A DNA stretch of 64,000 bases from Octopus vulgaris (Eukaryota). The notes below the pieces were generated by a model that did no database searches, was not told where the DNA came from, and saw only the letters and a program-made list of their open reading frames with translations. The stretch is taken from positions 25,544,001-25,608,000 of the forward strand of contig OX597816.1 of NCBI GenBank assembly GCA_951406725.2, read 5' to 3'. Positions 1,585-59,221 of this stretch are shown piece after piece. The position numbers were made by a program, and so were the translations under genes. How positions within the stretch are numbered: position 1 is the stretch's first letter; each line of letters starts with the position of its first letter.

Positions 1585-1770
1585 ATGATAGATCGCTAGT
1601 TACTACACGTTCTTTATTTTCTCTCCTTGTTTCTTTCTGTGTCCCTTTCTGTGGAAGTGCGTAGGCTCGAAACGTTAAAGACTTTTTAACTTTCCGAGTG
1701 TTATGCTAATACATCTGTTTGTTGTCTACACTACCAGTCTTCGTCTTTTGTTTTTTTTGTGACTTCTCCC
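1585..1770 (+). mobile_element. Short Penelope-like pseudo-LTR repeat between (TA)n tracts; other copies at ~4195-4375, 15785-15945(-), 40985-41190(-), 46040-46222, 59040-59175
   Basis: Shared ~180 bp with ctgtNgaagagcgtagRctcgaaacgtaaaagac, a hammerhead-derived core. Confidence 0.55.
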
Positions 1771-2656
1771 TATATATATATATATATATATATATATATG
1801 TATGTGTGTGTGTGTGCGTGTGTGCGTGTCTGTGTGCGTACGTGCGTGTGTGTGTGTGTATGTGTGGGACAAGAAGGCAAAACATCCGGACAGCTAGGTG
1901 ATACAAAAAGGGACAACAAAAAATCCAGATAGACGATCCAAAGAAAACAATGACGGGTGATTCGAAGTTTTCTTTCCTCAGTCAAGCACAAAATTATCCT
2001 CGCAATTTCGGGTGATTATTCTCGACATTGCTCCAATCTGGCCAGCCCCAAGGAAAAACTAAGCTAAGAGCATTAGATTCCTTGGAAGAAAGCACCGAAT
2101 GTATACAAAAACAAGGACAGAAAAAATGGACAATGTTACACAAATATAAATGCAATAAAAAATAATAACAAGTCATAACAACAGGTGTCTTTCGACTAAG
2201 GACGAATTGAATGAAGCTGGCGCGTGTGGAAATGAAGCTTCGAATGAACCGTCTTTATTTTCTTTGTGTCGTCTATCTGGATGTTTTGTTGCTCCTTTTT
2301 GTATCACCTAGTTGTCTGGATATTCTTGTCCCATTTTGTATTATATATATATATATGTATATATATATATGTGTGTATGTGTGTGTGTGTGTATGTGTGT
2401 GTATATATATACATATATATATATATATATATATATATATATATATATATATATATATATGTATACATACACACATATATAGCGGCATACGTACACTTTG
2501 GTCTCTCTCCCTCATATATATATATATATGAGAAAGAAAGAAAGAAAGAGAGAAATAGAGATAGACAGATAGGGAGAAAAAGATAGAGAGAGAGATAGAG
2601 TGTGTGTGTGTGTGTGTGTGAGAGAGAGAGAGAGAGAGAGAGATATCAGTACCAAC

Positions 2657-2767
2657 CTATGGAACAATCATATTTTCTGTATCCCGGGAGACAATTACAT
2701 ACGTACTCCCAGCCATGGTTTTCACATTTACCTCCGTTCTGGCAAGGATTACTACTGCATGGATCAA
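2657..2767 (-). CDS. EGF exon 12, type B (DPCSSNPCQNGGKCENHGWEYVCNCLPGYRKYDCSI)
   Basis: 111 nt, cag/gttggt, six Cys. Confidence 0.9.
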   Translation of the reverse strand: MIHAVVILARTEVNVKTMAGSTYVIVSRDTENMIVP

Positions 2768-3784
2768 CTGAAATAAGGAAATGATTAAGAACAACATGTA
2801 TTTAATTAATTCAAATTCCTACCCTGAAGATTATGCATCTTCATTAATTATGGTTTGTTGCTATCTCCACCTCTTGAAATTTAAACCAACACAATGTCTA
2901 CCTGCTCCGGCCGCCTTGGGCTATATTCTCCTCTACACTTTACCATTCATTCATACCTACCCAGACACACCCAGATACACACACACACACACACACACAC
3001 ACACACACACACACACACAACACACACACACACAACACACATACGCACACGCGCACACACGCACACACAAACATATATATATACACACATACCTATACAT
3101 ATACATATATGTATATATATATATATATATATATATATATATATATATATATATATATATATTTACATACATATAAAAGGGATGACCTGTAAGTGGACAT
3201 CCGTTATGCTAGAAGTAGATCCACTATGGTCTTACCACTAAGAAAGGAATGTTCTCAAGAAAATTTAGCAAACGCCAGAACGTAAGCGATCAAGAGAAAT
3301 GAAAAGATACAGAATATAGATTAATCACAAACTATGGTTTCGTCGTTAATGCTTACGTAATCACTAACATAATTATCCGCAACTTGTCAGTGTGATCGTC
3401 TTTGCAATTATAAATTGCAGAACTATACACGGGATTTGAATTTTTCACCCTCATTATTTTAAATTTATTTATATATTTAAATTTATATTTATTTATATAT
3501 TTAGATAAACACACCTACATCTGTCAATGCGTTTTAAAAGCACATTTATAATCAATATAAATTATAAAACATATTTTTGAACCCAGAGAAAGAGAGGCTG
3601 ATACACATAAACATATGCGTGCGCATACACATGCACACACACACACACACACACACACACACGCACATACACGCACACACATACACACAAATGCACGCAC
3701 GCACACACACACACACACACACACAAACGCACGCACAAGTACAGAAACACACACCGTCATACATATGCGAATATCATTACCAAG

Positions 3785-3892
3785 TTACAGAACAATCATG
3801 TCTGTATCCTGGGATACGTTCACATTCGAACTTATCTCCCTTGTTTGTACATTTGCCTTCATTCTGACATGGATTGCTACTGCATGGATCAA
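3785..3892 (-). pseudogene. Decayed EGF exon copy (type A pseudo-exon)
   Basis: Paralog of 652/6842 exons but Cys5 TGT>CGT, 3-nt deletion, donor GT>CT, acceptor gag. Confidence 0.8.
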
Positions 3893-4978
3893 CTCGAAGG
3901 CGAAAATAGTTACAAGTCAATTTGTTTTTGAAGTCAGGTGGTTCCTAAGGTCTCCCGTCAACGCCACTGGGAACATAGAATCTAATACAAACCGTTACTT
4001 GATAGGTTCCGCGAGAAACAGTGAGTTAAGCTAATGTTAATTTCATGATCGTAACATTATTGATTATTAAAATATTGGAATATAGACATCATCCTATCTA
4101 ACCTATTATGCTATCAAAAAAATATAACAAGCATTGGGGATATATTTAGTGATATCTGTAATTTATGGACACCCTAACACTTATATATATATAAAAGATC
4201 GTTAGCTACTACACACACTTTTTTCTCTCCTTGTTCTTTCTGTGTACCTTTCTGTAGAAGAGCGTAGACTCGAAACGTAAAAGACTTTTTCTATTCCTGA
4301 GCGCAATACTAATACATCTGTTTGATTGTACACCACCTGCCTTCGTCTTTTGTTTATTTTCTTAAACTTTCCCTTGATATATATATATATATATATATAT
4401 ATATATATATATATAATATATATATGATTTTTAGTACGTGAACTACGCTACTATGAAAAAGATATGAGAAAGATATGGTATATATTTTTTTTTGTGCAGG
4501 GGATCCTTGAGAAATGTAATTTAATTTAAGGGTTACGCAAGGATAAAAAGGTCGAGAAACACTACAAGTGGTACCTGCCATTATGCTCCCCACCATAAAA
4601 CAACACCACGTGGACTCTGTTGAGACTTGTAAGAAACAATTATGAACTTTTTTATTACACTTAACTTTTTAAAATATTTTTGATAACTTTCGTTTTTTCA
4701 AGAAGAACCGAAACATGTAAAATCTCTAAGAAAATTAAAATTTATCCTCTATAGTGGCATTTCCAAACATCTTTTTTATAAATATATACCCACTCGTATG
4801 CCACTTACACTTTTTATGAATAAATATATATATATGTATATATATATATATATATATATATATATATATATATATATATATATATATATATGAGAGAGAT
4901 AGAGAGATAGAGAGATAGATAGATAGATAGATAGAGAGAGAGAGAGAGAGAGAGAGAGAGAGAGAGATCGGTACCAAC

Positions 4979-56432: not shown

Positions 56433-56871
56433 CCCCTCTCTCTCTCTCTCTCTCTCTCTCTCTCTCTCTCTCTCTCTATATATATATATATATATATATA
56501 TATATATATATATATATATATATATATATATATATATATATAACATATTGCAGTCTTTATATATATATATATATATATATATATATATATATATATATAT
56601 ATATATATAATATATTATATATATACTAACCCTTTATTGCTTAGTATTACTTAAATATATTCCTCGAATGAGGCTTTTACATGCCGAAGACTACTTGGTG
56701 TAATTGATAATTATATATATATATATATATATATATATATATATATTATATATATATAATATCACCACACACAAACACACACACATATACATTATATACG
56801 GTAAACTTTCTTAGAAGCCTGTGTCAACATTAGCCTCGTACAGTCTCGTTATATAAAATCAGCATTTATAA

Positions 56872-57098
56872 TTAAAATATCTCACCGTAAAAGGTCCACG
56901 GCTCGTTACCGTATAATTCAAAACTATTCCTATTGGTTGGTAGTACTTTGCATATTTGCTTGCTTTCGGAATACTCATCGGCTACGCATTGCTTTATAAC
57001 GCACAATGCAGAGCAATCGGCAAAGGTCTTTACTGCATGATATTCAACCAGTTTGCTGCATTCGGCGACACTTGCTCCTTTAATGATATTTTTAAATC
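56872..57098 (-). CDS. Second gene: probable terminal exon, second PAN/Apple-like domain
   Basis: Acceptor after a T-rich tract, in frame with previous exon; DCSALC..CVADEY..ICKVL..WTFY then TAA at 56872-56874. Confidence 0.78.
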
Positions 57099-58675
57099 CT
57101 TGGAAAAGATTGAAAAAAAAAACATGCATGTGAGATTAGAATGGATGATCACGTGTATGTTTTGAATACTATGTTTCTGCCTCTGTGTGTGTGTGTATGT
57201 ATGTAAATAAAGAAATAATAATAATGATAATCTATCTATCTATCTATCTATCTATCTATCTATCTATCTATCTATCTATCTATCTATCTATCTATCTATC
57301 TATGTATCTCTGTATCTCTGTATCTATGTATGTATGTATCTATCTATCTATGTATGTATATATATAAGAATTTTTTGCGTAATAAGATAAAAAATCAAGG
57401 CTGTATAGATATTAGAGTATTTATAGAAAGAAGGTCTTACAGTTGTTTCTATGATATTTATTAATAATATCCCTTCATTGGAAACGGTGTGAGATGGATA
57501 GTTAAGTCATAGTTAGTTTAGATGTGATACAAAATAGAGAGTGAGGTGGAGGAAAGAAAATAGATGTAAGCTATGTAGATGTAAGATATGTAGATGTAAG
57601 AGATGTAAGATATGGGTATTGAAGTTGTAAATCTATTTTATAGGCATAATGGTGTATATGCAATATTCCAATATCCTATGAGTAAAGTCCAAAAGTTCAA
57701 CAGAGTTTAAAATGAGTCCTTCCAAAAACCTCTACAAGACATACACATACAAATACAAAGACACACACACACATATACGCACGCGCAAACACACGCATTA
57801 TATATATATATATATATATATATTCTTCTAGGTTACTGGATTTCGAAGCACACATAAAACTATAAAAAAAAAAACGTGTAAATATTGGGTTGAAACTACT
57901 TGTTTGGATAGAAAATTTCGACGCCTTCGACTTTTCTATTCAGAAGTGTTTTTCAGCCCAATATCTACATGGTCTATTATTTATAGCTTTATGTGTGCTT
58001 CGAGATCTAGTTCGAAAAAAAAAGAATTATGTCATGTTCCCTAAAAATTTTATAGATATATACAACCTCTACAAGACATACACACACATACACATCATCA
58101 TCATCATTGTTCGACCGTGGTCGAGACTAAATTCCATAGTCTTTTCAAATGGCTAATAATGTGTGCGCGCGCCACTACTACACACATCGGAAAGCATTGT
58201 ACAACCAAGTACTAAAGAAGATCTTTCCTCCTCCATGAAACAAAGCTGTTCCCGCTGGACGTCAACCCAGTATTTCTAAGCTACGGACCGAGTGATTTAT
58301 TGTAAGGTTATCTCCCTAGATAGATTGCCTTCACTACGGCTAAGAAGCCCTTTCTACCCCAATGACATACACACATACGCAATGACACACACACACACAT
58401 ACATGCACGCGCGCACACACACGCATTATATATGTGCATGTATGCATGTATGTGCGTAAGTATATAACATACGTACACACACATTATCCAGAAATATGCG
58501 CGAATGAATATCGATAAAGTGGCGTTCGCGTACTTTCAAAAGGTTGTGCAAATGTATTGGTTTTAAACAGGAAGTGAAATAACCTCCCAGTATCGATTTT
58601 TTGCAAACTTACACCTGCTTCTGTCGCTCCTCCTATACTCTCACACAAAAATATATATTTCATAGTATTACTTAC

Positions 58676-58909
58676 CTTTACGTTGATAATAATCTCTGTT
58701 TTTACAATCGATGGATCTCAAAACATTGTTTGAAGCCGCATTTCTAGAGAGTAATTCACAAATTTCGTGTTCGTTGTCATAGTTGAAAGACCGGCATCCT
58801 TTTAATTCCTGGCATTTCTTCGCGCACAAATTAGGGTGTGGAACCACATACGTAAAGATGGGTATCGTATCTAACTTAGCATTCTGCACACGAATGAAAT
58901 CTGTCGACC
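58676..58909 (-). CDS. Second gene: PAN/Apple domain exon
   Basis: 234 nt, phase 1-1, tag/gtaagt; CAKKC..GCRSFNY..ICELLS..DYYQR is the PAN pattern. Confidence 0.88.
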
Positions 58910-59221
58910 CTAAAAATAATAAAATAAACTAAATGTATAAATATTTATAGTTCTATTTCGTCATGTTGGATCGCTGAAAGCTACAAGTTTTTTCCGATCT
59001 CTCTCTGTTTATTTTTTCATTCTCTCTCTGTTGATTTTCTCTTATTCCTTTCTGTTGAAGAGCGTAGACTCGAAACGTAAAAGACATTTTTCATTTTTCC
59101 CGAACGTCAAACTAAAACACTTGCTTGTTGTTCATACACCTGTCTTCGTCGTTTGTTTTTCAATAAATTTCACCTATATAGTTTTATAGTTGACTTAAAC
59201 TTAAAAATTGGTTTGTTTGTA

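What the first reader, a model, noticed from the sequence alone, without database searches (positions are those of the whole stretch)
1650..59085. Unusually diverse set of hammerhead motifs within 60 kb
Seen: CUGANGA..GAAA..UH cores with unrelated stems at 10828(+), 15676(-), 17236(-), 17532(-), 37776(+), 38222(+), 41092(-), 43205(-), 45741(+), 50855(-) and 56398(+). Core-mutated versions sit at ~1650, 4252, 13325, 15888, 37595, 46103, 57435 and 59052. Most lie in 150-600 bp islands between (TA)n tracts with no coding sequence. Inference: these are several non-autonomous ribozyme-bearing retroelement families (Penelope pseudo-LTRs or retrozyme-like) that prefer (TA)n targets.
Basis: partly seen in the sequence, partly recalled or inferred. 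Interest (0 to 1): 0.72.

Follow-up and report, generated by a model that had tools for sequence, protein, structure and literature searches.

The report
Penelope tail hammerheads, fixed U6 core
The motifs are real hammerhead-ribozyme sequences at the tail ends of cut-short Penelope-type jumping genes that litter this animal genome; the commonest family has a fixed U where the core nearly always has A and likely cuts slowly, which is untested.

Summary
The motifs are real: 7 full type I hammerheads against 0.04-0.1 in shuffles, with compensatory stem changes. They are not all unrelated: 9 of 19 listed sites belong to two sister families. Nor are they a separate non-autonomous class: for four families (11 of 19 sites) longer copies elsewhere carry the same motif downstream of a GIY-YIG frame (A and B also RT), with nested 5' truncation, inverted stubs and (TA)n ends. 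They are 3' stubs of Penelope-like elements in introns of an EGF/VWA gene, a known phenomenon (PMC4209133). The genome holds roughly 10^5 such motifs; the window is 3-10 times denser than samples, compatible with an extreme window. Five 'core-mutated' sites are not decay: family B (15,892 exact copies) has U at core position 6 in 32 of 34 independently picked copies and none has A, while N7 and H17 vary as in working hammerheads. I did not find U6 in print. The scan noted this U6 core before on other DNA (e1-9953875). Cleavage is untested.

The parts
1645..1680 (+). Family B hammerhead (core CUGUNGA, U at position 6; stem II has one mismatch in this copy)
3323..3397 (-).
4248..4283 (+). Family B hammerhead (U6)
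10828..10878 (+). Family F hammerhead, 4-bp stem III, U.U at the base of stem II in all relatives seen
13320..13340 (-). Half core only (GAAAC, palindromic loop, GUU); no CUGANGA found
15676..15710 (-). Family A minimal hammerhead, canonical core, extra A after A9, palindromic ACGU stem III
15884..15918 (-). Family B body with U6 core but family-A loop II; 208 nt 5' of the 15706 copy on the same strand
17237..17321 (-). Family I hammerhead, decayed cleavage triplet (GCA; relatives GUA)
17532..17566 (-). Family A minimal hammerhead, canonical core
37595..37628 (-). Doubtful hammerhead remnant with U3-A8-like core
37776..37836 (+). Family G hammerhead, decayed stem I in this copy
38222..38306 (+). 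Family E hammerhead, long stem II
41089..41123 (-). Family A minimal hammerhead (CUGAAGA subfamily)
43207..43244 (-). Family H hammerhead, decayed stems in this copy
45550..45979 (+). 5'-truncated 3' end of PLE family C between (TA)n tracts; holds the hammerhead at 45741-45830
46033..46222 (+). 5'-truncated 3' end of PLE family B between (TA)n tracts; hammerhead with U6 at 46100-46135
50855..50939 (-). Family D hammerhead, young family (copies 95-99% alike)
56398..56432 (+). Family A minimal hammerhead, canonical core
57435..57482 (-). Family J hammerhead, decayed in this copy (relatives CCGAUGA or CUGAUGA)
59048..59083 (+). Family B hammerhead (U6)
650..50106 (-). Exons of the host gene inside the window: four VWA exons (12362-13114, 30971-31663, 35165-35848, 49474-50106 as open frames) and 14 EGF exons; EGF exons continue in both flanks

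Best explanation
The window holds about a dozen families of type I hammerhead motifs, and for four of them the motif is the 3' end (pseudo-LTR) of a protein-coding Penelope-like retrotransposon whose short 5'-truncated copies sit at (TA)n tracts in the introns of an EGF/VWA gene; the other families likely arose the same way. The element's own RT and GIY-YIG nuclease likely prime at (TA)n and stop early, which leaves 150-450-bp stubs that keep the hammerhead. In the parent RNA, two hammerheads likely pair through their palindromic stem III and cut at a low rate; single intronic stubs are probably nearly inert. Family B's U6 and family A's C4 are fixed lineage variants, likely slowed but still selected hammerheads, not decay.
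For: Shown: descriptor count 7 vs <=0.105 in shuffles. Family B lies about 0.75 kb behind an open frame with RT, Cys-rich linker and GIY-YIG in L151, followed by a second, more truncated copy; that frame's relatives are 630-1360-aa proteins, most with RVT_1 and many with GIY-YIG. Family A flanks a broken RT/GIY-YIG frame as a direct repeat on both sides in L271. Family C lies 1.1 kb behind a GIY-YIG frame (Pfam E 2.7e-7) in L179, shared by L187 and L172; 20 copies form a nested 5'-truncation series with one 3' end at (TA)n, and several carry inverted stubs. Family D shows the same with L208/L192. Compensatory pairs: 6 of 21 in family C, 5 of 18 in family D, slid controls 0-1 and 0-3. Family B, 34 copies picked by their 3' flank: position 6 U32/C2/A0, N7 A11/U11/G7/C5, H17 A25/U9; diversity 0.079 in the ribozyme block vs 0.205 in the flank; shared variants in 2 of 34 vs 27 of 85 columns, Fisher p=0.002. 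Contigs of 4 runs under 3 organism labels show no other letter at position 6 in 5% or more of depth, all four at N7, A/U at H17. Orientation to the host gene 11 sense, 9 antisense. From print: solo, diverse minimal hammerheads in thousands per genome, extra nucleotide after A9, palindromic loop 3, low activity needing dimers (PMC4209133, parts 1-2 of 4 read); 5' truncation, inverted stubs, (TA)n bias (PMC8557442, passages).
Against: No cleavage or RNA data. A family-A subfamily has G at position 17 (14 of 30 loci fetched with a G17 query, read by eye), which by recalled hammerhead chemistry blocks cleavage, so spread does not require catalysis in this clade. A6C lowers activity strongly in Mg2+ (PMC3088659, PMC7151607, passages). 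No coding partner was found for families E, F, G, H, I, J in the loci held. Most single copies do not fold into the hammerhead as their lowest-energy structure (z from -3.5 to +1.3; only 45747 is strong). In family C most compensatory cells come from one split between two subfamilies, and the pair count was reached by 62 of 500 shuffles. In one search, 10 of 44 rows were dropped (truncated, unrelated, or duplicates of pattern-picked loci) and copies are related.
Confidence: 0.82

Rival explanations
1. The PLE origin holds, but the hammerhead fold in the big A/B clade is catalytically dead and is kept as a protein-binding or dimerisation signal for reverse transcription.
For: The most abundant lineages carry non-canonical cores: U6 (15,892 exact copies), C4 (69 of the first 100 of 9,080 matches; 46-79% of depth) and a G17 subfamily. 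Cervera and de la Pena allow functions other than cleavage (PMC4209133); PMC8557442 suggests that losing the ribozyme may aid spread.
Against: In family B the free positions are exactly N7 and H17, and H17 is never G in 34 copies nor at 5% of depth; catalytic G8 and G12 stay fixed. U4C keeps viroids infectious and A6C still cleaves (PMC3088659).
Confidence: 0.3
2. The islands are non-autonomous retrozymes that spread as small circular RNAs.
For: Island sizes of 150-450 bp and type I topology match retrozymes (PMC7229834); retrozymes derive from PLE pseudo-LTRs and occur as monomers (bioRxiv 10.64898/2026.07.22.740005, part 1 and passages). No coding partner seen for six families.
Against: No hammerhead-bearing head-to-tail array in the window; 5' ends are ragged, not unit-length; A, B, C, D run on into PLE coding frames.
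Confidence: 0.1
3. This locus is a selected hot spot where intronic hammerheads regulate the EGF/VWA pre-mRNA.
For: Canonical cores: 7 in 64 kb vs 5 in 770 kb elsewhere, 0 in 200 kb of flanks that hold more of the same gene's EGF exons. All 4 family-A copies here have U4 although about 69% genome-wide have C4. Two same-strand pairs lie 208 and 246 nt apart in the sense direction.
Against: No strand bias (11:9); many copies are decayed; at the random rate 0.3 of about 43,800 windows would reach 7 by chance, 89 at the upper bound of that rate; density of family B varies several-fold along C1; the window was chosen for this feature.
Confidence: 0.05
4. Chance matches in low-complexity DNA.
For: CUGANGA alone occurs at the chance rate; Rfam has no hit.
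Against: Full descriptor 7 vs <=0.105; variant-aware 11 vs 0.08; thousands of homologous copies; covariation.
Confidence: 0.01

Closest known systems
Minimal type I hammerheads of metazoan Penelope-like elements (Cervera and de la Pena 2014, PMC4209133; parts 1-2 of 4 read, supplementary figures not seen)
   Same: Type I, short palindromic helix III, extra nucleotide between 9 and 10.1, G10.1-C11.1, many families per genome, mostly solo copies from truncated PLEs, some inverted pairs, few inside full PLEs.
   Different: Cores reported there are canonical or U3-A8; here the largest family has U6 and its sister C4. Families C, D, E have long stem II and no extra nucleotide. The parts I read do not mention cephalopods.
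EN+ PLEs with C-terminal GIY-YIG (Neptune and Hydra clades; Craig et al. 2021, PMC8557442, passages)
   Same: RT then GIY-YIG, Cys-rich linker in A/B, 5' truncation, partial tandems, inverted stubs, (TA)n targets, hammerhead near the 3' end.
   Different: Clade not tested by a tree. Neptune for A/B rests on the CxxxCxxC-type linker; Hydra for C/D rests on a recalled look of the nuclease tail.
Metazoan non-LTR retrozymes (PMC7229834, parts 1-2 of 6 and passages; bioRxiv 10.64898/2026.07.22.740005, part 1 of 5 and passages)
   Same: Type I hammerheads, 150-450-bp size, low GC, PLE ancestry.
   Different: Not in tandem units, ragged 5' ends, continuous with coding frames; circular RNA not shown.
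Natural A6C hammerhead of phage Bcep176 (PMC3088659, PMC7151607; passages)
   Same: A natural pyrimidine at core position 6.
   Different: A single phage sequence with C6, slow in Mg2+ and better in Mn2+; here U6 is fixed in a retrotransposon lineage of at least 15,892 copies.

Membership tests
PLE minimal hammerhead | Type I topology with stems I and II around the core | tested here: met
   7 of 11 named sites pass, 11 with variant cores; the other 4 named sites conform only at family level
PLE minimal hammerhead | Short or palindromic helix III suited to dimers | tested here: met
   ACGU in A/B, ACAAUUGU in C with a compensatory change in relatives
PLE minimal hammerhead | Extra nucleotide after A9 and G10.1-C11.1 | tested here: met
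   A and B: extra A in 34 of 34 B copies; absent in C, D, E
PLE minimal hammerhead | Canonical core CUGANGA/GAAA/UH | tested here: not met
   Met by C, D, E and the four A copies in the window; not met by family B (U6) or by most A copies genome-wide (C4)
PLE minimal hammerhead | Self-cleavage, as a dimer | not testable with these tools
   no assay; no raw RNA reads offered
EN+ Penelope-like element | RT plus C-terminal GIY-YIG frame 5' of the hammerhead on the same strand | tested here: met
   B: L151; A: L271, broken frame; C: L179 and D: L208, nuclease tail only
EN+ Penelope-like element | Same linkage for families E-J | tested here: inconclusive
   no same-strand continuous link in the loci held; only 3-kb loci examined
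EN+ Penelope-like element | 5' truncation, partial tandems (pseudo-LTR), inverted 5' stubs | tested here: met
EN+ Penelope-like element | (TA)n insertion bias | tested here: met
   15 of 20 sites vs 19.5% of random positions; part of the tract may be made by the element itself
Neptune or Hydra clade | RT phylogeny | not tested
   no reference set held; names rest on linker motif (A/B) and recall (C/D)
Non-LTR retrozyme | Head-to-tail units, each with a hammerhead | tested here: not met
   ragged 5' ends
Non-LTR retrozyme | No coding capacity in the parent element | tested here: not met
   A, B, C, D continue into PLE frames; open for E-J
Non-LTR retrozyme | Abundant unit-length linear and circular RNA | not testable with these tools
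   only contigs, none on record as RNA

The most novel reading that the evidence does not exclude
The most successful Penelope lineages of this genome run on deliberately slowed hammerheads: a U6 core (and C4 in the sister family) that still cleaves as a dimer and has been kept by selection across subfamilies and related species, giving a natural allelic series to test what PLE ribozymes are for.
Probability: 0.4. Interest if true: 0.62.

Novelty: new variant of a known kind. Interest (0 to 1): 0.4.

Why it matters
The cluster itself is ordinary for this genome. What matters is the core: the function of PLE hammerheads is an open question (PMC4209133, PMC8557442), and here sister lineages with canonical, C4, U6 and G17 cores coexist with very different copy numbers, so cleavage rate can be set against spread. 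Descriptors that demand CUGANGA miss most of these motifs (4 of 17 variant-aware hits in 380 kb of random sequence are canonical), so hammerhead counts in such genomes are underestimates.

Tried and rejected
Rfam: no match at gathering score; the E-value run was swamped by microsatellite hits to miRNA models, 150 of 200 rows shown. The 7.8-kb repeat across the N gap (53429-61162 again at 61264-69042, 97.8%) looked like a possible empty-site test for 56402, but the second copy is garbled there, so it shows nothing. A GIY-YIG family search returned mostly one young 781-aa family whose tail matches none of the window's hammerheads; hammerheads near those loci were separate insertions. Local (TA)n density does not explain the window's excess: 100 vs 99.5 and 111.5 tracts per 100 kb. 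The Mann-Whitney distance test returned no value; only the island fractions are used. No RNA holder listed: no statement on expression. Single-copy folding mostly uninformative. The 2017 RNA Biology paper on PLE hammerheads cleaving as dimers (recalled) was not held (one search was another paper), so it and the supplementary figures of PMC4209133 may already show U6. Searches for U6 in print; for cephalopod hammerheads; PMC13282606 has no occurrence of ribozyme or hammerhead. The organism is probably an octopus; that rests on recall of the repeat landscape and earlier notes and was not tested.
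Full report
Observation. All 11 named sites carry CUGANGA followed by GAAAC. The heptamer alone is at chance level (29 seen; 22.7 +/- 4.4 in shuffles), but a type I descriptor with three stems gives 7 sites against 0.035 and 0.105 in two sets of 200 dinucleotide shuffles. Allowing any Watson-Crick 3:8 pair, C4 or U6 gives 11 against 0.08 in 100 shuffles. The four named sites that fail (10834, 17316, 37781, 43240) belong to dispersed repeat families with a hammerhead layout; three are decayed copies and one has a family-wide U.U pair at the base of stem II. 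Rfam finds none. The sites lie in introns of a minus-strand gene with four VWA and 14 EGF exons in the window, and EGF exons continue through both 100-kb flanks.

Families. BLAST of the islands shows that 15706, 17562, 41119 and 56402 are one family (A) and 1649, 4252, 15914, 46104 and 59052 its sister (B). The rest are single members of about ten further families, so about a dozen in all. Exact pattern counts in the 2.8-Gb genome: 629 for a 33-letter canonical A pattern, 9,080 for a 31-letter A pattern with free positions, 15,892 for a 28-letter B pattern; reversed controls 0. Families C (45747), D (50933), E (38227) and I (17316) have 3,098, 1,567, 127 and 257 first-look candidates, of which 40 each were scored.

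What they are. In L151 family B lies about 0.75 kb behind an open frame holding RT motifs, a Cys-rich linker and GIY-YIG, and a second, shorter copy follows in tandem; the frame's 150 longer relatives mostly carry RVT_1, many also GIY-YIG, although Pfam alone did not score this partial frame. In L271 family A stands as a direct repeat on both sides of a broken RT/GIY-YIG frame, the pseudo-LTR layout. For family C, 20 copies share one 3' end at (TA)n and start at staggered points; the three longest reach a GIY-YIG frame (Pfam E 2.7e-7), and several have inverted stubs at the 5' side. Family D shows the same series up to a similar nuclease tail in L208 and L192. These four families cover 11 of the 19 listed sites. 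For E-J no link was seen in 3-kb loci, but inverted stubs and (TA)n ends recur. Fifteen of 20 sites lie in islands of at most 600 bp between (TA)n tracts, against 19.5% of random positions. No hammerhead lies in a head-to-tail array. The islands are therefore 3' stubs of Penelope-like elements (shown for A-D, inferred for the rest).

Structure under selection. Named structures on alignments of 9 copies each give both-side changes in 6 of 21 pairs (family C) and 5 of 18 (family D), with slid controls at 0-1 and 0-3; in C these mostly reflect one subfamily split and 62 of 500 shuffles reach the pair count.

The 'mutated' family B. I collected B copies by their 3' flank alone, leaving out those fetched by the core pattern: 44 rows, 34 kept after dropping truncated, unrelated and duplicate rows. 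Position 6 is U in 32, C in 2, A in none. N7 shows all four letters and changes several times on the flank tree; H17 is A or U, never G; G8, A9, A13, A14 and U16.1 are invariant and G12 differs in one copy. Diversity is 0.079 in the 34-column block and 0.205 in 85 flank columns; variants shared by four or more copies occur in 2 of 34 block columns (both CpG) and 27 of 85 flank columns (p=0.002; copies are related, so this is a guide). Contigs from four public runs under three organism labels repeat the picture: no other letter at position 6 at 5% of depth, all four at N7, A/U at H17. In family A, 69 of the first 100 matches have C4 (46-79% of depth), and a subfamily has G17 (14 of 30 loci). 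So non-canonical cores are lineage states. In print I found A6C (slow, Mn2+-favoured) and U4C (viable in a viroid) (PMC3088659, PMC7151607, passages) but not U6; one key paper was not held. An earlier AI note reports the same U6 core on another piece of this genome (e1-9953875); I saw it after my own tests.

Is the window unusual? Canonical hits: 7 in 64 kb, 4 in 380 kb of 38 scattered stretches, 0 in 200 kb of flanks, 1 in 190 kb of a region picked for dense B copies. Variant-aware: 17.2 per 100 kb against 4.5, 4.0 and 6.3, which extrapolates to roughly 10^5 motifs in the genome. At the random rate P(7 or more) is 7e-6, or 0.3 expected among about 43,800 windows, and 89 at the upper bound of the rate. 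(TA)n density does not differ. The excess is real but compatible with an extreme window in an unevenly seeded genome; I cannot exclude a local cause.

Mechanism. Shown: anatomy, linkage, truncation, (TA)n ends, covariation, fixed variants. Inferred from PMC4209133 and PMC8557442: target-primed reverse transcription at (TA)n with early stop; dimeric cleavage of tandem precursor RNA through the palindromic stem III; low activity of solo copies, which fits the 11:9 orientation to the host gene. Whether U6 cuts is open: the N7/H17 pattern argues for catalysis (about 0.55), the G17 subfamily and A6C data argue that the fold may serve without it.

Verdict. Real, mostly known biology in a genome where I found it unreported, with one variant worth a bench test. 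Interest 0.4.

Noticed in passing
   Followed up: partly
window 3323-3397 (-): A further type I hammerhead with one core change; a relative in L222 has CUGAAGA.
   Followed up: partly
window 15570-15960 (-): A B-body copy with the family-A loop II directly followed by an A copy, both sense to the host gene and sharing the ACGU palindrome; a B-then-A pair also occurs in L007. Could form a dimer in the pre-mRNA.
   Followed up: partly
window 53429-61162 and 61264 onward: 7.8-kb near-identical repeat across the 100-N gap, probably an assembly duplicate.
   Followed up: yes
window 650-50106 and both flanks (L051-L070): Very large minus-strand array of EGF exons over more than 200 kb, with four VWA exons only in this window.
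   Followed up: partly
L131, L132, L142, L145, L146: Young PLE family with many 781-aa open frames (RVT_1, GIY-YIG), ending at (TA)n with a U3-A8-like hammerhead core.
   Followed up: partly
random stretches and flanks: A further motif class with A3-U8, C4 and U6 together (3 hits in 380 kb, 1 in the flanks); not examined.
   Followed up: no
window 7774-8822 (+) and 25483-26203 (+): Broken Tc1/mariner-type transposase remnants.
   Followed up: no
window 11447-11966, 19218-19799, 22326-22866, 26923-27456, 41720-42086: Short tandem arrays of a 184-bp repeat without a hammerhead.
   Followed up: no
window 2764-2893 and 5138-5239 (+): Two related stretches with CUGAAGA beside EGF exons, no GAAA partner and no other copies in held loci; probably a local exon-intron duplication.
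   Followed up: partly
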